A stretch of 44,763 nucleotides of DNA from a virus, in the UHGV virus genome UHGV-0246887; one strand, given 5' to 3'. The notes beneath the pieces were generated by a model, which searched no databases, was not told the origin of the DNA, and was given only the letters and a program-made list of their open reading frames with translations. Both the position numbers and the translations under genes were made by a program. Shown piece after piece: positions 533 through 34,365 of the stretch (the stretch's first letter is position 1; each line of letters begins with the position of its first letter).

Positions 533-662
533 CGGCGACCCGTAACCCTCCCAGCCTGCCGATTTGGTGGGCTTTTTTGTGCCTGTTATAATCCACCTTA
601 GATGGCAGGGCCGTCTCCTATGTTGCCGATGGTCGGCGCATATGAACAAAAGGGCTTATATT

Positions 663-5540: not shown

Positions 5541-5652
5541 CCCGTCCGCGGACCCCGACGAAGATTTGATGATTGACGTGAAAAATATGGAATGCGGCGC
5601 GAAGCTAAGGGCGCAAGTGCTGGAGTTGCAGCAAATAATTAAGGGGCCGTGA
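5422..5652 (+). CDS. Putative o-spanin (Rz1-like outer-membrane lipoprotein)
   Basis: Signal peptide with lipobox LSAC-G (MLRALTALIVVLMLSACGSS), proline-containing mature part; starts in the +1 frame inside the i-spanin candidate; RBS AAAGAGG. Confidence 0.5.
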   Translation: MLRALTALIVVLMLSACGSSNVPLMPLTESALRPPCKFDNPSADPDEDLMIDVKNMECGAKLRAQVLELQQIIKGP

Positions 5653-5669
5653 TGGCCCCTTTTTCTTTA
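5641..5669. terminator. Bidirectional rho-independent terminator
   Basis: GC hairpin AGGGGCC-gtgat-GGCCCCT followed by TTTTCTTT; lies between convergent genes. Confidence 0.55.
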
Positions 5670-6234: not shown

Positions 6235-6266
6235 TTGGTGTGCAACCAATATAGCGCAACCAATTC
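6235..6266 (-). promoter_or_regulatory. Promoter-like region with two ATTGGTTGCA motif copies upstream of the clamp-like gene
   Basis: Minus strand reads TTGCAC-N18-TATATT with motif copies in the spacer and at +1; the same 23-nt string GCTATATTGGTTGCACACCAACA recurs at about 40638. Confidence 0.45.
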
Positions 6267-11117: not shown

Positions 11118-11141
11118 GGGGCCAGTACGGCCCCTTTTTTA
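11118..11141 (+). terminator. Rho-independent terminator after major tail gene
   Basis: GGGGCC-agta-CGGCCCC followed by TTTTTT. Confidence 0.7.
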
Positions 11142-11833: not shown

Positions 11834-11980
11834 TGAAGCGAGACAAACGGGACGTCCCGTTTTGTCCCGCCCCTGTAAAACTGCATATCTACTCACTTCC
11901 ACTGCATAAACTCAAAACGGGACAAGCGGGACGTCCCGTTTTGTCACGCCCTGTAAATATGCATACATATGCAGATTTCG
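11834..11980. repeat. Palindrome/iteron-rich non-coding region (AAACGGGACGTCCCGTTTT twice; CTGTAAA-N-TGCATA twice)
   Basis: Direct reading: perfect 18-19 bp palindromes and CGGGAC(A/G) hexamers. Confidence 0.6.
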
Positions 11981-12152
11981 TGCATAAACCAAACGGGACA
12001 AAAAGCGGGACAAACACGAGGCGGGACAAAGCGGGACAGCACCCCCGTCCCGCCCCGGATGGCGCGGCTTCCAGAGGAGCGGGACAGCGGGACAGCACCC
12101 CAGTCTTTCAGACTAGACGGGGGTCAACGGCCCCCCTCGTCTGAGACTGAAT
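11981..12152. repeat. Copy A of a ~172-bp duplicated element with six or more CGGGACA iterons and a 3' GC hairpin
   Basis: Near-identical to 40291..40463; the ORF-track translations of 11833..12144 and 40199..40453 share an identical peptide string. Confidence 0.8.
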
Positions 12153-12217
12153 AAGGTTTGTTTTGAAATCGCTGATACAATATCCATCGGCAACTGCATA
12201 AAAAAGGGGACTGCATA

Positions 12218-14860: not shown

Positions 14861-14894
14861 TAAAATGGCCCTCACTACAACGTGGGGGCTTTTT

Positions 14895-24283: not shown

Positions 24284-24287
24284 ATAG

Positions 24288-24311
24288 AAGGGGCCGTATG
24301 GCCCCTTTTTT
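24288..24311. terminator. Bidirectional terminator between tail fiber gene and minus-strand early operon end
   Basis: AGGGGCC-gtat-GGCCCCT followed by TTTTTT. Confidence 0.7.
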
Positions 24312-27159: not shown

Positions 27160-27190
27160 TAATGCAACCAATATGATTATGCAACCAATT
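27160..27190. promoter_or_regulatory. Two direct ATGCAACCAAT motif copies
   Basis: Direct reading; intergenic. Confidence 0.5.
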
Positions 27191-31065: not shown

Positions 31066-33357
31066 CTACTTGCGGTAGCGATACATGCAATCGCCCTCTG
31101 CGGCAAGTGGGAAGCCTTTCGCCCAAATAGGCAGGTCGCACATCAGCGCGCAAAGCTCCTCTGTCGTGTAGTCGTCGGTGTCCGGCACTTCTGTGATCAA
31201 TTCATCATGCACCGATAGAACGATTTCATAGCCCGCAGCTTCAACGCCAGGCATTGACCAGGCGAGAATATCACGGCACAACGCCTGTACTATGTTCTCC
31301 GTCAGTTTGCCGCCGTAGGTATACTGGAAGCCCCACTGGCGCGTCGTCTGATTCTCGCCCTGATATTTAATGCGGGTGCTGGTGCGTTTCTTGCCGGTAT
31401 CTTCGTCAATCTCGGTAGTGACAGACAGCGCTATGCCGGGGTAGCTCATGATGCGCCCCGACGGCAACTCAATTTTCAACCACCACCCCGCGGCGTTCGG
31501 GTCGTCGCGCTCCTCGTCAAAGGTTGGGTCGTGCTTCGCCTTCGTGCGCACAATCTTGAGCGCTTTCCTACCGTCCGGGCGAACGTTAGCGCCAGCCCAG
31601 TATGCTTTGCCCGGATTGCGGATTGCACACAACACCGCGTCCTCAAGCTCGGCCCAAAAGGCGACCGTCTTCGGGTGAGCCTCGCGCCACATGCGTTTGA
31701 TTGCGTCACAAGTCAGCCATACGTTTTTCGGAAGTATGTATGTTGGGCGCTCGTCTTTCTTGCCTGGCTTCGGTGGGCGTTTCGCTTCGTTAATGCGGGC
31801 GTACTCATAACCGCGCTTCGCCGCCGCCCAAATGTGATCGGGGAATGTACCCTTCATCACGTCCGCCATAGCGTAAAGGTCGAGGCCCAGGTTTTTAGCG
31901 AACTGCAAGAACGCCGCGACGCCGCCACCATAGCCCAGTCCCAATTCACACGCCTTACCGATCTGGCGCAAGTCTTTGCGGTTGGCTTTAATGTAGTCCG
32001 GGTCCAGGCCGAACATCTTACCGGCAGTCTCACAATAGATATCGCGACCGGCCCTAAACACCATTAGCGCGGTTTTCTCGCCCGCGATCCAGGCAAGTCC
32101 ACGCCCTTCCACGTTGGAGTAGTCCGCTACGACAAACTTCTTGCCCTTAGCCGGGATAATGCACCCGCGAACGGTCGAGGCTGTTAGCTTAGATATGTCA
32201 TACGCCCAGTGCGCGGTCCCGCGTAACAGGGAATTGATGCCGTTGGTGAGCATGTGCGACCGGACCCAAAAAGCAACGTCGCTCTCGCCTTCGCGGCGCT
32301 TAATCTTCCCTTCGTGATCGTCGCTATACTCGCCGCGTGCCAGGTTTTGAGGCTGGAAGCCTTTACCCGCCCAGCGCAGCGTGCGCTTTGCGCCACCATA
32401 CTGAAGACACCCACGGCGGCGACCGTCGGCAGACAGGCCATTAACGAGCGGATTGTACTTAGTCGATGCCGTTGATGACGCGCCGAGGCGCATTTCGATA
32501 AGCGCTTTGCCTTCGTCTGGGAAGTCCTGGTCTTCAAGCAGGTCGTTAAGTGTGGATTTCTGCGCGTTGTGGATTGTGAACGCCGGGGCGATATCACGCA
32601 GGATTGGCAGGAAGTCATTGCCTGTCAGTTTACCACCAAATCGCTCCCAGGCTTCCTCCTTCAATTCTTCCTTATGCGCCTGCACCGCTTTGATCGCGGC
32701 GTTCGCCAGGTCAACGTCCACATAGAAGCCGCGGTCGTTGATCAACTGGTCAATAAGCAGGATTTCGTCTTCCTTCGGCGTGTTGCCCCAGTCCGGTATG
32801 CGCCAATAGACTTCCCTCATAGCGATGATATCCAACGCGGCATAGCGCAGGAATTTAGCCCACTCCTCGGGGTGCGTCTCGCGCGTGTAGCGGCGGATTT
32901 TGTAGGTCTTAGGGGTTGGCTTACAGAATCGTTTGATCAGCGCCTTGCCCGCCTTATCCTTCGCGTGCTCTGCGTCAACGCCCAACACCTGGCACTGCAT
33001 ATCGAGGCCACCCGGCAGCGCGTGTCGAAAGGCCATAATCATGGTGTCTTCGATCTGGCACACTGGCAGGTCAATGCCCCACTTCTCGCGAATGACCAGG
33101 CGGTCAAACAGGAGGCCGTTAGCCATCACTATTTTTGCTTTCTTGCGGGATACCCTGCGGAGCGCCTTGCGCAGTTCACGCGGCATTGTTGGGGACTCGG
33201 TGCAATCCCATGTCTGCACGCGGCCCTCGTCGATGGCGTAGGTGCAAATCATAATCTCGGTGGTTGGGTGCTCTGCGTAGGCATATGCGCCCACTTTCTT
33301 CAGATCCACCCCGCTAAATGTCTCGGTATCGAGAAAAAGTCGTTCGAAGTCTTTCAT
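31066..33357 (-). CDS. DNA polymerase, family A (Pol I-like) with 3'-5' exonuclease domain
   Basis: N-terminal LDTETFS exonuclease motif, C-terminal SVHDELITEV motif C; 763 aa. Confidence 0.9.
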   Translation of the reverse strand: MKDFERLFLDTETFSGVDLKKVGAYAYAEHPTTEIMICTYAIDEGRVQTWDCTESPTMPRELRKALRRVSRKKAKIVMANGLLFDRLVIREKWGIDLPVCQIEDTMIMAFRHALPGGLDMQCQVLGVDAEHAKDKAGKALIKRFCKPTPKTYKIRRYTRETHPEEWAKFLRYAALDIIAMREVYWRIPDWGNTPKEDEILLIDQLINDRGFYVDVDLANAAIKAVQAHKEELKEEAWERFGGKLTGNDFLPILRDIAPAFTIHNAQKSTLNDLLEDQDFPDEGKALIEMRLGASSTASTKYNPLVNGLSADGRRRGCLQYGGAKRTLRWAGKGFQPQNLARGEYSDDHEGKIKRREGESDVAFWVRSHMLTNGINSLLRGTAHWAYDISKLTASTVRGCIIPAKGKKFVVADYSNVEGRGLAWIAGEKTALMVFRAGRDIYCETAGKMFGLDPDYIKANRKDLRQIGKACELGLGYGGGVAAFLQFAKNLGLDLYAMADVMKGTFPDHIWAAAKRGYEYARINEAKRPPKPGKKDERPTYILPKNVWLTCDAIKRMWREAHPKTVAFWAELEDAVLCAIRNPGKAYWAGANVRPDGRKALKIVRTKAKHDPTFDEERDDPNAAGWWLKIELPSGRIMSYPGIALSVTTEIDEDTGKKRTSTRIKYQGENQTTRQWGFQYTYGGKLTENIVQALCRDILAWSMPGVEAAGYEIVLSVHDELITEVPDTDDYTTEELCALMCDLPIWAKGFPLAAEGDCMYRYRK

Positions 33358-33582: not shown

Positions 33583-34365
33583 TTAACGGCGGCGACGTTT
33601 ACGTGGTGCTTCGTCTTCGTCGTCGTCCTCATCTTCGTCATCGCGTGGCTTACGACGTTTACGAGGTTTCTCGTCTTCGTCATCATCATCGTCATCGCGG
33701 CGCTTGGACTTTTTGGACTTGCGCGGCTTGTCGTCTTCGTCATCGTCATCGCGACGTTTTGACTTTTTGGACTTGCGCGGGCTTTCATCTTCGTCATCGT
33801 CGCCCAGGTCCTCGTCTGAGCAAGAAGATCCGCCACCTCCGAAGGCTTCGCCGTCTTCACGGAATCGCAGACCCAGCAAGCCAGCCCCGAGACCCTTGCC
33901 GTTGGTATTGTTCCATGCCCAAATATCAAGGGACACGTTGCAATAACAACCGGAGTAGATCTCCTGGCCTTCAATCTCGTCGCCGTCGATGGTCAGACCT
34001 TGTTCAGTCTGCTTCTCGCCGAGTGACGTTTGAATGATTGGTTGTTTGAACGATTTGGCGTTGATATACAACATGCCTTCGAATTCTTCGGTTACTTCAT
34101 CGCGCTCGTCGCCGTCGCGAACTGCACATTCCTTAGAATCCTGGGCGTAGTGGCGGTCCATCCACTTATCGGCATTCTTCTCGGATTTCAGCTTGTCGGT
34201 GAGCACTGCGCGCGCTGCCGCTTCCACTTTGTCCACCTGCGGATCTTCTTTATCCAGAAGAATCACGGCACGGTATGCCGGTTTTTGCCCATCCTGTTTA
34301 GGGGTATCACGTTCCCAAATTTTAAGGAAGCATACGCGCACATTTTTCAGGTTGACTTTAGCCAT
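33583..34365 (-). CDS. Putative ssDNA-binding protein (DUF2815-like) with repetitive charged C-terminal tail
   Basis: N-terminal MAKVNLKNVRV... and YSGCYCNVSLDIWAWNNTNGKGLGAGL resemble DUF2815; C-terminus is repeats of DDDDEDDKPRKSKKSKRR. Confidence 0.5.
   Translation of the reverse strand: MAKVNLKNVRVCFLKIWERDTPKQDGQKPAYRAVILLDKEDPQVDKVEAAARAVLTDKLKSEKNADKWMDRHYAQDSKECAVRDGDERDEVTEEFEGMLYINAKSFKQPIIQTSLGEKQTEQGLTIDGDEIEGQEIYSGCYCNVSLDIWAWNNTNGKGLGAGLLGLRFREDGEAFGGGGSSCSDEDLGDDDEDESPRKSKKSKRRDDDDEDDKPRKSKKSKRRDDDDDDEDEKPRKRRKPRDDEDEDDDEDEAPRKRRRR

What the first reader, a model, noticed from the sequence alone, without database searches (positions are those of the whole stretch)
11834..12152. 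CGGGACA-iteron element present in two copies, about 28 kb apart (copy A with extra palindromes)
A ~172-bp sequence (11981-12152) recurs almost identically at 40291-40463. It holds six or more direct CGGGACA(A) repeats at roughly helical spacing plus one inverted copy, and ends in a GC-rich hairpin. Copy A is preceded by a unique ~150-bp segment with more CGGGAC(A/G) units and two perfect palindromes (AAACGGGACGTCCCGTTTT). Neither copy is coding. Two separated iteron clusters next to a P4 alpha-like primase-helicase recall the bipartite ori/crr origin of P4; alternatives are terminase (pac) recognition sites or late-transcription operator arrays.
Basis: partly seen in the sequence, partly recalled or inferred. 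Interest (0 to 1): 0.7.

Follow-up and report, generated by a model that had tools for sequence, protein, structure and literature searches.

The report
Duplicated iteron origin-like element in phage
The two CGGGACA-repeat blocks are real, conserved non-coding elements of Dhillonvirus phages that most likely form the docking site (replication origin) for the phage's own primase-helicase, with the second copy in the tail operon being a genus-specific duplicate.

Summary
A 174-nt element (11981-12154) recurs at 40290-40463 at 96% identity. Each copy has six direct CGGGACA units, one inverted GTCCCG and a 49-nt palindrome/hairpin.

The window is a complete Dhillonvirus genome, and about 159 phage records carry both copies. 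The near-identity is specific to this genome. Elsewhere the two copies are 75-89% alike, because here copy A has been overwritten by the B-type middle segment.

Copy B sits just 3' of the primase-helicase gene. Related phages (phiEap-2, Pantoea AH01, SP-031-like phages, several metagenomic lineages) have one homologous element at that position only. The layout is the same but the heptamer is lineage-specific (CGGACAA, GGGGGAG, GGGATAA, TCGCAA and others).

The primase-helicase ends in a predicted winged-helix domain. This domain is hypervariable and changes together with the iterons.

Best reading (about 0.55): an iteron origin for a self-loading primase-helicase. It follows SaPI Rep/ori and P4 alpha/ori-crr logic but uses a RepA/RecA-type helicase. 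Copy A would be a second origin or enhancer.

Rivals are a transcription-control module, a ncRNA and a pac site. Nothing is tested experimentally. The SO-1 GenBank record already flags both regions as repeats.

The parts
37877..40141 (+). Replicative primase-helicase gene (754 aa): N-terminal primase with a Cys/His zinc motif, then an AAA_25/RepA-type helicase (residues 357-531 match Pfam).
   Evidence: Pfam AAA_25, 1.4e-19. PHROG 3228 'replicative helicase-primase'. The only PDB sequence hit is a weak one to RSF1010 RepA, 1g8y. Conserved C..H..C.H.HC columns appear in alignment A3.
39875..40096 (+). Predicted C-terminal winged-helix domain of the primase-helicase (about residues 667-740). It is the candidate iteron-binding domain.
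40142..40675 (+). Region B: the whole gene-free stretch between the primase-helicase gene and the next gene.
   Evidence: Sequence and ORF list. The SO-1 record annotates the homologous stretch as repeat_region 'region B'.
40255..40302 (+). AT-rich block of copy B (77% AT) holding TGAATAGTTATGCA (40269-40282) and TGCATAAAC. It is a candidate unwinding element and/or promoter-operator.
   Evidence: It is the most AT-rich 40-nt window of the genome. TGAATAGTTATGCA-N7-TGAATAnn is shared with phiEap-2, AH01, SP-031-like phages, L160 and L270.
40290..40463 (+). Core element, copy B. Iterons CGGGACA at 40303, 40315, 40331, 40341, 40389 and 40398; inverted GTCCCG at 40356-40361; B-type spacer at 40362-40388.
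40410..40458 (+). 49-nt imperfect palindrome/hairpin of copy B (CAGTCTTTCAGACTAGACGGGGG-loop-CCCCCCTCGTCTGAGACTG).
   Evidence: Stable in all folds. The stems are near-invariant and the loop is variable across the 35 Dhillonvirus copies. The arms are replaced in concert in other lineages: AGTCT/AGACT becomes ATCATC/GATGAT in L160 and ATCCTC/GAGGAT in L270.
40485..40492 (+). ACGGCAGC octamer 26 nt after the hairpin. It is conserved at the homologous spot in relatives and is over-represented genome-wide.
11834..12217 (+). Region A: the gene-free stretch between the tail chaperone GT gene and the tape-measure gene. This insertion is specific to Dhillonvirus.
   Evidence: SO-1 'region A'. GT and the tape-measure gene abut in Serratia Tsm2. 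Salmonella vB_SenTO17 has no second iteron cluster.
11838..11951 (+). Left iteron sets of copy A: two 79-nt tandem modules. Each holds direct and inverted CGGGAC units around the palindrome CGGGACGTCCCG (11848-11859, 11927-11938), followed by an AT-rich TGCATA block.
   Evidence: Repeat family D7. This corresponds to the left iterons that flank the AT block in phiEap-2, AH01, L160, SP-031-like phages and L270.
11952..11993 (+). AT-rich block of copy A (69% AT; TGTAAATATGCATACATATGCAGATTTCGTGCATAAACCAAA).
11981..12154 (+). Core element, copy A. Iterons at 11994, 12006, 12022, 12032, 12080 and 12088; inverted GTCCCG at 12047-12052. The spacer 12053-12079 is of the B type in this genome (gene conversion).
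   Evidence: The A-type versus B-type middle segments are seen. Window copy A is 90% identical to other genomes' B copies but 84% to their A copies.
12101..12149 (+). 49-nt palindrome/hairpin of copy A, identical to that of copy B.
12173..12194 (+). TGATACAAT (extended -10-like, conserved in all A copies), followed by CGGCAAC (a 7/8 match to ACGGCARC).
   Evidence: Alignment. The promoter scan did not call it because there is no -35.
40619..40647 (+). Sigma-70-like promoter TTGCAT-17-TATATT for the gene starting at 40676. It overlaps two ATTGGTTGCA motifs and belongs to region B, not to the repeat.

Best explanation
The element is a cis-acting protein-binding array that most likely serves as the phage replication origin.

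Proposed mechanism (inferred):
1. The C-terminal winged-helix domains of the hexameric primase-helicase bind the CGGGACA heptamers.
2. This gathers the enzyme next to, and in copy A on both sides of, a very AT-rich block, which melts.
3. The helicase loads itself without a separate initiator or loader, and its primase domain starts synthesis for the phage Pol I-type polymerase.

Copy B, directly 3' of the primase-helicase gene, is the ancestral site. Copy A is a Dhillonvirus-specific duplicate inserted between the tail chaperone and tape-measure genes. It would act as a second origin or as a distant enhancer, like P4 crr. The two copies exchange sequence by gene conversion.

The role of the conserved 49-nt palindrome and of the ACGGCAGC that follows it is not resolved. 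They could be a priming or loading signal, or a transcription stop.

Shown: the anatomy, the conservation, the position, the winged-helix prediction and the co-variation. Inferred: binding, melting and origin activity.
For: 1. Real and selected.
- Both copies occur in about 159 Dhillonvirus records.
- A lineage whose primase-helicase is only 68% identical also has both.
- The iterons are almost invariant and the hairpin arms near-invariant over 35 distinct copies.
- The element is absent from E. coli genomes and plasmids.

2. Position tracks the replication gene. One homologous element lies 21-43 nt after the primase-helicase stop codon in phiEap-2, L176, AH01, L160 and SP-031-like phages, and at the same place in L270. 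SP-031-like phages have a single cluster.

3. Same layout, different heptamers.
- The shared layout is: left iterons, an AT block with two TGAATA units 21 bp apart, 3-5 direct iterons, one inverted iteron, a spacer, 2-3 iterons, a long palindrome, then ACGGCAGC.
- The heptamer changes by lineage and in all copies at once: CGGGACA, CGGACAA, TCGGACAA/TCCGACAA, GGGGGAG, GGGATAA.
- More distant lineages have TCGCAA, TTCCGCACA or GGGGATC arrays in the same place.

4. A candidate reader exists and co-varies.
- The primase-helicase ends in a predicted winged helix.
- L160 and L176 proteins are 90-100% identical in every 40-column window up to alignment column 660, and 42-63% over the last ~100 columns. 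So the C-terminal domain and the downstream iterons were swapped as one unit.
- Lineages with the same iteron have related putative recognition helices (phiEap-2/AH01; L267/L268; Dhillonvirus/L265). Lineages with different iterons have different ones.

5. AT block. Copy B's block is the most AT-rich 40-nt window in the genome.

6. No separate initiator was recognised. The genome encodes a T7-like replication set: primase-helicase, Pol I, gp2.5-like SSB and an exonuclease.

7. Precedent.
- SaPI Rep helicases bind 6-12 short iterons placed immediately downstream of rep, around an AT-rich centre, through a C-terminal winged helix (PMC9371898).
- P4 alpha binds origin repeats with a winged helix, and pRN1's origin lies just 3' of its primase-helicase gene (PMC4234260).
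Against: - There is no experimental datum of any kind.
- Winged helices are generic. The P4 alpha origin-binding domain is not among the top structural hits.
- Co-variation rests on about ten lineages. It could reflect simple linkage between the 3' end of the gene and its flank.
- One helix class (RRP...) goes with three different iterons.
- Jerseyvirus SS3e and Kagunavirus Golestan have a homologous C-terminal domain, but no iteron array was seen after the gene.
- In Dhillonvirus copy B the left iteron set is missing; ATTGGTTGCC promoter-type motifs sit there instead.
- The strict co-orientation with transcription, the -10-like sequences after the hairpin and the operator-like TGAATAGT units fit a transcriptional role equally well.
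- GC skew gives no origin signal beyond gene orientation.
- The AT-rich divergent region at 37.3-37.5 kb is an alternative origin candidate.
Confidence: 0.55

Rival explanations
1. Transcription-control module. The AT block is a promoter/operator, the iteron stretch is a bound or transcribed leader, and the palindrome is a terminator or pause site. The module would switch on or re-start rightward (late) transcription: copy B at the head of the lysis-packaging-head genes, copy A ahead of the tape-measure and tail-tip genes.
For: - Both copies are co-oriented with the flanking genes.
- The + strand late region holds several strong intrinsic terminators (553, 5641, 11118, 14867, 24286, 42693, 43922). 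Some read-through or re-initiation device is therefore needed.
- A conserved extended -10-like TGATACAAT follows every A copy, and CAAAAT/CATAAT follows every B copy.
- TGAATAGT units sit inside strong sigma-70 promoters in Kagunavirus Golestan at the equivalent place, next to a Cro/DicA-like repressor gene.
Against: - The scans call no sigma-70 promoter and no U-tract terminator in either region.
- The gene after B has its own promoter with a different motif.
- Relatives express their tail genes without any copy A.
- Lineage-specific heptamers that change with the helicase C-terminus are not explained unless that domain is the regulator.
Confidence: 0.2
2. Structured non-coding RNA. This could be a leader or sRNA of about 170 nt that acts in cis on RNA polymerase (put/nut-like antitermination), or one that sponges an RNA-binding protein through its repeated GGGACA motifs.
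For: - There are two co-oriented copies, as with nutL/nutR and putL/putR (my own knowledge).
- The + strand is purine-rich (AT skew 0.48).
- The 3' hairpin is robust, and an A-type copy folds with z = -3.1.
- The arms of the hairpin change in concert between lineages.
Against: - There is no Rfam match even at E <= 1.
- RNAalifold finds 0 compensatory pairs over 35 copies, and no conserved fold for the iteron or spacer part.
- The window copy folds with z = -1.9 only.
- The middle segment can be swapped between A and B types without harm.
- Concerted arm changes are equally expected for a palindromic protein site.
- The hairpin has no U tract and no promoter was called.
Confidence: 0.08
3. Packaging (pac) recognition array for the small terminase.
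For: Arrays of short repeats are used by some small terminases (SPP1, P1; my own knowledge). Several GenBank records are opened roughly 110 nt after copy B.
Against: - The element follows the primase-helicase gene in all lineages, not the terminase genes, which lie about 4.9 kb away here.
- Record starts are arbitrary or set by homology (PMC6563267). One record that ends exactly at the repeat looks like an assembly break.
- Two pac sites 16 and 28 kb apart would give two packaging series.
- The phiEap-2 paper identifies only one terminase subunit, yet the phage has the element.
Confidence: 0.04
4. Selfish or neutral repeat: a small mobile or recombining sequence maintained by gene conversion, with no function for the phage.
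For: The two copies exchange segments. CTGCATAA-like words occur at both ends of the core.
Against: - There are exactly two copies at fixed positions in about 159 genomes.
- The iterons are almost invariant and the palindrome arms near-invariant, conservation well above the ~92-96% identity of the flanking DNA between these genomes.
- The architecture is conserved across genera while the primary sequence has diverged.
- No copies exist in host genomes or plasmids.
Confidence: 0.05

Closest known systems
SaPI Rep / PriRep self-loading helicase and its ori (Staphylococcus aureus pathogenicity islands)
   Same: - A helicase (fused to primase in SaPI5) carries a C-terminal winged helix that reads short iterons.
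- There are 6-12 iterons immediately downstream of the gene.
- An AT-rich centre has iterons on both sides, some in opposite orientation.
- No separate initiator or loader is needed.
(PMC9371898.) This matches the layout in copy A and in phiEap-2, AH01, L160, L270 and SP-031-like phages.
   Different: - The SaPI Rep helicase is AAA+ (SF3/MCM-like) and moves 3'-5'. The protein here is AAA_25/RepA, RecA-type.
- The iterons here are heptamers in an asymmetric array (1-2 or 4 on the left, 6-7 on the right).
- There is an extra conserved 49-nt palindrome and an ACGGCAGC motif.
- A second full copy lies 28 kb away.
- The carrier is a virulent siphophage, not a satellite.
Phage P4 alpha protein with ori and crr
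   Same: - One polypeptide combines primase, helicase and a C-terminal winged helix that binds the origin repeats (as summarised in PMC4234260).
- From my own knowledge: the P4 origin is bipartite, with the same iteron present in ori and in the distant cis-required crr.
   Different: - No sequence or top structural match to alpha was found.
- The helicase class differs.
- The distance here is 28 kb (16 kb the other way round the circular map), against about 4.5 kb in P4 (my own knowledge).
- The second copy is a near-complete duplicate of the first, not a distinct region.
- Relatives manage with one copy.
Bacillus phage SPP1 oriL / oriR
   Same: From my own knowledge: two origin-like regions about 32 kb apart in a 44-kb virulent siphophage. 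Each has repeated boxes plus an AT-rich segment, both are bound by the same phage protein, and one lies in the late region.
   Different: The SPP1 binder (G38P) is a separate replisome organiser, not the helicase. oriL lies inside gene 38. There is no sequence relation.
Plasmid pRN1 ORF904 and its downstream stem-loop origin; RSF1010 RepA/RepB'/RepC with iterons and ssi hairpins
   Same: - pRN1: the origin lies just 3' of a primase-helicase gene whose protein has a C-terminal winged helix. A long stem-loop is the essential element, and the authors note similar arrangements in phages.
- RSF1010: a RepA-type helicase (the only PDB sequence hit) works at an iteron origin.
- From my own knowledge: RSF1010 RepB' primase starts at conserved ssi hairpins in that origin.
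   Different: - pRN1 has no iterons and uses an SF3 helicase.
- RSF1010 splits the functions over three proteins, and RepC reads 20-bp iterons.
- Whether the palindrome here acts as a single-strand priming signal is untested.
'Region A' and 'region B' repeat_region features of Sodalis phage SO-1 (NC_013600)
   Same: These are the same two loci. They are annotated as 'direct, inverted and palindromic repeat sequences; sequence similarity with region B/A; possible ...'.
   Different: This is only a database note (truncated in the tool output). No paper in the searchable library assigns a function.

Membership tests
P4 ori/crr - alpha system | Initiator homologous to P4 alpha (primase + SF3/D5-type helicase + alpha origin-binding domain) | tested here: not met
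   Pfam gives only AAA_25. PHROGs place it in 'replicative helicase-primase' 3228. The PDB sequence search returns only RSF1010 RepA, at E 0.53. The P4 origin-binding domain is not in the top 50-60 fold hits.
P4 ori/crr - alpha system | Short iterons recognised by a C-terminal winged helix of the primase-helicase | tested here: inconclusive
   The iterons are present, a winged helix is predicted, and the two co-vary across lineages. Binding itself cannot be tested here.
P4 ori/crr - alpha system | A second, distant iteron region required in cis | tested here: inconclusive
   Copy A exists in all Dhillonvirus records. However, phiEap-2-, AH01- and SP-031-type relatives carry a single element. 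Whether copy A is required cannot be tested here.
SaPI-type self-loading helicase origin | 6-12 short iterons immediately downstream of the helicase ORF | tested here: met
   There are seven heptamer units per core. In relatives the array starts 21-43 nt after the stop codon. In Dhillonvirus copy B it starts 162 nt after the stop.
SaPI-type self-loading helicase origin | AT-rich centre with iterons on both sides, some in opposite orientation | tested here: inconclusive
   Met in copy A (left sets 11838-11951, right set 11994-12094) and in phiEap-2, AH01, L160, L270 and SP-031-like phages. Not met in Dhillonvirus copy B, which has no CGGGAC unit left of its AT block.
SaPI-type self-loading helicase origin | Helicase of the AAA+ SF3/MCM-like class | tested here: not met
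   The domain is AAA_25/RepA, a RecA-type fold.
SaPI-type self-loading helicase origin | Origin activity and ATP-independent melting by the helicase | not testable with these tools
   This needs EMSA, a melting assay, and a plasmid or marker-frequency assay.
Intrinsic (Rho-independent) terminator | GC-rich hairpin followed directly by a U tract | tested here: not met
   The palindrome is followed by AATAAGG (copy A) or AATAAAATCC (copy B). The terminator scan does not call it in either region.
Known RNA families (Rfam 15), including phage antitermination and regulatory RNAs | Match to a curated covariance model | tested here: not met
   There are no hits at gathering score. At E <= 1 there is none in region A or B; the single weak hit is at 42677-42729.
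put/nut-type cis-acting antitermination RNA | Conserved RNA secondary structure supported by compensatory changes | tested here: inconclusive
   Within Dhillonvirus there are 0 compensatory pairs in 32 predicted pairs. Between lineages the palindrome arms change in concert, but a DNA palindrome bound by a dimer predicts the same pattern.
pac site / small-terminase recognition array | Location in or next to the terminase genes, with packaging ends nearby | tested here: not met
   The terS-like gene is at 564-1214, 4.9 kb from B and 10.6 kb from A. The element is syntenic with the primase-helicase gene in every lineage examined. Physical ends cannot be tested here.

The most novel reading that the evidence does not exclude
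A RepA/RecA-type (SF4-like) primase-helicase of a T7-style replisome is its own origin-recognition protein. It would read lineage-specific heptamers through a swappable C-terminal winged helix, forming a third, independently evolved version of the P4-alpha/SaPI-Rep 'self-loading initiator-helicase' design that is widespread in virulent enterobacterial siphophages.

Dhillonviruses would have duplicated the whole origin into the middle of the tail operon. The second copy would then work as a true second origin or as a long-range enhancer that links replication to late gene expression.
Probability: 0.35. Interest if true: 0.7.

Novelty: new variant of a known kind. Interest (0 to 1): 0.55.

Why it matters
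No paper in the searched library reports a replication origin for Dhillonvirus or its Guernseyvirinae-like relatives. These small coliphages and Salmonella phages are among the most frequently isolated and are used in therapy, biocontrol and defence-system screens.

A defined origin and its reader domain would:
- give a direct handle for engineering, such as origin-bearing plasmids, interference by titration, and host-range-independent rebooting;
- explain a conserved 'hypothetical ORF' region that is mis-annotated in many records;
- add a RecA-type helicase to the short list of self-loading initiator-helicases.

The natural set of at least eight iteron/winged-helix pairs would also be a ready-made system for studying how DNA-binding specificity evolves.

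Tried and rejected
- IMG/VR scan for three spaced CGGGACA units. It returned about 120 loci, but these were mostly unrelated coding tandem repeats, so it says nothing about distribution.
- RNA structure. Single-sequence folds and RNAalifold on 35 copies support only the terminal hairpin. No fold is conserved for the iteron or spacer part. Rfam was searched twice with no hit.
- Sigma-70 promoter and terminator scans over both regions found nothing convincing.
- GC and AT skew follow gene orientation only.
- Record start points as evidence for pac: rejected. Starts are conventional or assembly-driven.
- Protein search with the C-terminal 155 aa alone found only one fragment. The full-length query worked.
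- ATTGGTTGC repeats around copy B as the 'real' iterons: rejected. The motif occurs 16 times genome-wide inside sigma-70-like promoters.
- Presence or absence of the winged helix as a correlate of the element: not informative. SS3e and Golestan keep the domain but show no array after the gene.
- T7-type primase sites (GTC on the minus strand of CGGGACA): considered and dropped, because GGGGGAG and GGGATAA iterons lack GTC.
- ArgR boxes (TGAAT-N4-ATTCA, 21-bp phasing) in the AT block: noted only, not tested.
- Literature: no paper was found that describes the element or an origin for these phages.
Full report
**What the window is.** The 44.8-kb window is a complete genome of a Dhillonvirus (HK578/SO-1-like E. 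coli siphophage). It is collinear with phage JLBYU60.
- Packaging, head and tail genes run on the + strand from 0.5 to 24.3 kb.
- A T7-like replication block lies on the - strand from 24.3 to 37.3 kb. It encodes Pol I, a gp2.5-like SSB, an exonuclease and a second helicase.
- A + strand block then follows: an HTH gene, the primase-helicase gene (37877-40141), small genes, and the holins and lysozyme. This block continues into the terminase genes.

**Check of the observation.** The repeat is real.
- 11981-12154 and 40290-40463 are 174 nt long and 96% identical.
- CGGGACA occurs 18 times against 5.9 expected, and 14 of those lie in the two regions.
- Each core has six direct units, one inverted GTCCCG and an identical 49-nt imperfect palindrome (12101-12149; 40410-40458).
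- The spacings are 12, 16, 10, 48 and 8-9 nt, so they are not regularly helical.
- Copy A is preceded by two 79-nt tandem modules (family D7). Each is built around CGGGACGTCCCG (exact at 11848 and 11927) plus an AT-rich TGCATA block. The 18-nt palindrome AAACGGGACGTCCCGTTT is exact only in the first module.
- Single-base indels among homologous copies argue against coding.

**Distribution within the genus.**
- About 159 phage records contain both regions.
- The SO-1 GenBank record already labels them 'region A' and 'region B' repeat regions.
- I found no paper that discusses them.
- Across 16 genomes the A and B cores are 75-89% identical within a genome (median 84%). The window is the outlier at 96%.
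- The alignment explains why. A-type and B-type copies normally carry different about 30-nt middle segments, and in this genome copy A carries the B-type segment. This is a recent B-to-A gene conversion. Other segments, such as the sixth iteron variant, also pass between copies in some genomes.

**What is conserved.** Over 35 distinct copies the TGCATAAA word and all iterons are almost invariant and the arms of the palindrome near-invariant, while the palindrome loop and the spacer vary.
- RNAalifold finds no compensatory pair and no conserved fold outside the terminal hairpin.
- Rfam has no match.
- Neither a sigma-70 promoter nor a U-tract terminator is called in either region.
- The element is absent from E. 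coli genomes and plasmids.

**Relatives outside the genus.** This was the informative step. Phages whose primase-helicase is 43-49% identical carry one homologous element, always directly after that gene. These are SP-031-like Salmonella phages (30 records), Enterobacter phage phiEap-2, Pantoea phage AH01 and the metagenomic contigs L160, L176 and L270.
- The layout is the same in all of them:
  1. one or two iterons right after the stop codon;
  2. an AT-rich block with two TGAATA units 21 bp apart (TGAATAGTTATGCA is shared verbatim with Dhillonvirus copy B);
  3. three to five direct iterons, then one inverted iteron;
  4. a spacer of about 30 nt, then two or three more iterons;
  5. a long imperfect palindrome ending in (C)ATAA or TATTCAT;
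  6. an ACGGCAGC-like word, then the promoter of the next gene.
- The heptamer differs by lineage and changes in all copies at once, including the inverted one: CGGGACA, CGGACAA, TCGGACAA/TCCGACAA, GGGGGAG, GGGATAA.
- More distant lineages have TCGCAA, TTCCGCACA or GGGGATC arrays in the same place.
- The palindrome arms also change in concert: AGTCT/AGACT, ATCATC/GATGAT, ATCCTC/GAGGAT.
- SP-031-like genomes have a single cluster. In Serratia phage Tsm2 the tail chaperone and tape-measure genes abut. The B position is therefore ancestral, and copy A is an insertion specific to Dhillonvirus and to a 68%-identical sister lineage.
- The A-type spacer resembles the spacer of the other genera (GCC..CTGCCGC..GGTTT..GCCGA). 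The Dhillonvirus B-type spacer is therefore the derived one.
- The 'unique 150 bp' of copy A corresponds to the left iteron set that Dhillonvirus copy B has lost.

**The candidate reader.**
- The primase-helicase is not P4-alpha-like. Its helicase is AAA_25/RepA-type, and the only PDB sequence match is a weak one to RSF1010 RepA.
- Its last roughly 100 residues are the hypervariable part of the protein. L160 and L176 are 90-100% identical in every 40-column window up to alignment column 660, then 42-63% identical. That is exactly where their downstream iterons also differ.
- An AlphaFold model of residues 615-754, built with 42 homologues, gives a confident core (pLDDT 84-90) of three helices plus a beta hairpin.
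- Putative recognition helix against iteron:
  - phiEap-2 and AH01 (RRRSLVKEM, RRRDLLRDM) share CGGACAA.
  - L267 and L268 (YGKTLAKM, YKKVLEEL) share TCGCAA.
  - Dhillonvirus and its 68% sister (STKAIDDM, NTTAINAL) share CGGGACA.
  - SP-031 (DRYKILKDL) has GGGGGAG.
- The pattern is suggestive, not proof. The sample is small, and one helix class (RRP...) goes with three different iterons.

**Most likely mechanism.** The anatomy matches the self-loading initiator-helicase design.
- In SaPIs, Rep (fused to primase in SaPI5) binds 6-12 short iterons immediately downstream of its own gene, on both sides of an AT-rich centre. It does so through a C-terminal winged helix and needs no loader (PMC9371898).
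- P4 alpha does the same with a winged helix at its origin repeats. pRN1 has its origin, a stem-loop, just 3' of its primase-helicase gene (PMC4234260).
- Here the AT block of copy B is the most AT-rich 40-nt window in the genome.
- The phage encodes a T7-like replisome and no recognisable separate initiator.
- I therefore read the element as the origin, with copy A as a second origin or a crr-like enhancer.
- The roles of the palindrome and the ACGGCAGC word remain open.

**Rivals.**
- A transcription-control reading is not excluded. Both copies are co-oriented with the genes, and the late region is studded with strong terminators. -10-like words follow the palindrome, and TGAATAGT units are promoter operators in Kagunavirus. 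The two readings could both be true, as with a transcription-activated origin.
- A ncRNA reading lacks structural support.
- A pac reading is contradicted by synteny with the replication gene rather than the terminase genes.
- A functionless repeat is contradicted by the conservation.

**Verdict.** The finding is a new variant of a known kind of system, already noticed as an unexplained repeat in one database record, and untested experimentally.

Noticed in passing
window, genome-wide; e.g. 40485-40492, 2092, 9568, 15001, 20492, 36277: The octamer ACGGCARC is the most over-represented 8-mer in the genome. It occurs 33 times on the + strand and 10 on the - strand, against about 2.6 expected per strand, roughly once per kb. 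The + bias persists inside the minus-strand gene block. ACGGCAGC is likewise frequent in Serratia Tsm2 and Salmonella vB_SenTO17 and sits just after the element in all lineages. It could be a priming, helicase or recombination signal.
   Followed up: partly
window 6242-6264(-), 22345(-), 25491/25502, 27164-27189(-), 30138(-), 37332, 40153, 40207, 40242, 40524(-), 40614, 40645, 41200(-): ATTGGTTGC occurs 16 times exactly, mostly in pairs inside sigma-70-like promoters (for example TTGCAT-17-TATATT at 40619-40647). Six copies flank element B. It is probably the operator/promoter motif of the early genes, perhaps read by the HTH protein encoded at 37537-37866. Relatives have analogous motifs (ATGTTGGCTGC, TTCCGCACA).
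   Followed up: partly
window, + strand: Chi-containing CGCTGGTGG occurs 6 times on the + strand and never on the - strand (CTGGTGG: 16 against 7). This suggests oriented Chi sites that protect against RecBCD.
   Followed up: no
window 553-573, 5641-5661, 11118-11134, 14867-14890, 24286-24309, 42693-42722, 43922-43943: There are strong intrinsic terminators inside the long + strand lysis/structural gene array, including one right after the major tail protein gene and one after the tape-measure gene. They imply read-through control or internal promoters.
   Followed up: no
window 40269-40296; L152 12895-12935; L155 915-950; L154 4150-4220: TGAATAGTTATGCA-N7-TGAATAnn places two TGAATA units 21 bp apart. 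This resembles a tandem pair of E. coli ARG boxes (TGAAT-N4-ATTCA; my own knowledge). The same GTGAATAGT word sits in the spacers of two strong promoters next to a Cro/DicA-like gene in Kagunavirus Golestan.
   Followed up: no
window 31067-31183 and 41537-41653: There is a 117-nt inverted repeat (74% complementary) between the 3' end of the DNA polymerase gene and the small ORF 41325-41654. The C-terminus of that ORF's product matches a 'DNA polymerase' PHROG, so it looks like a duplicated polymerase fragment.
   Followed up: no
window 33599-33805 and 36816-37042 (- strand genes): There are tandem 54-90-nt coding repeats rich in GTC/TTC (acidic/lysine-rich repeats in the products) in two early genes, including the 232-aa protein encoded at 36610-37308.
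   Followed up: no
window 40165-40182: A near-perfect palindrome ATATGTGGATTCCCATAT (ATATGGGAATTCCCATAT in relatives) lies between two TTAAATTTTGCGCGCATTGGTTGCC repeats upstream of element B. This 54-nt unit is present in some Dhillonvirus genomes and absent from others.
   Followed up: no
window 42677-42729: The only Rfam hit at E <= 1 (NsiR1, 29 bits, below its gathering score) coincides with the terminator hairpin at 42693-42722. It is almost certainly a chance match.
   Followed up: no
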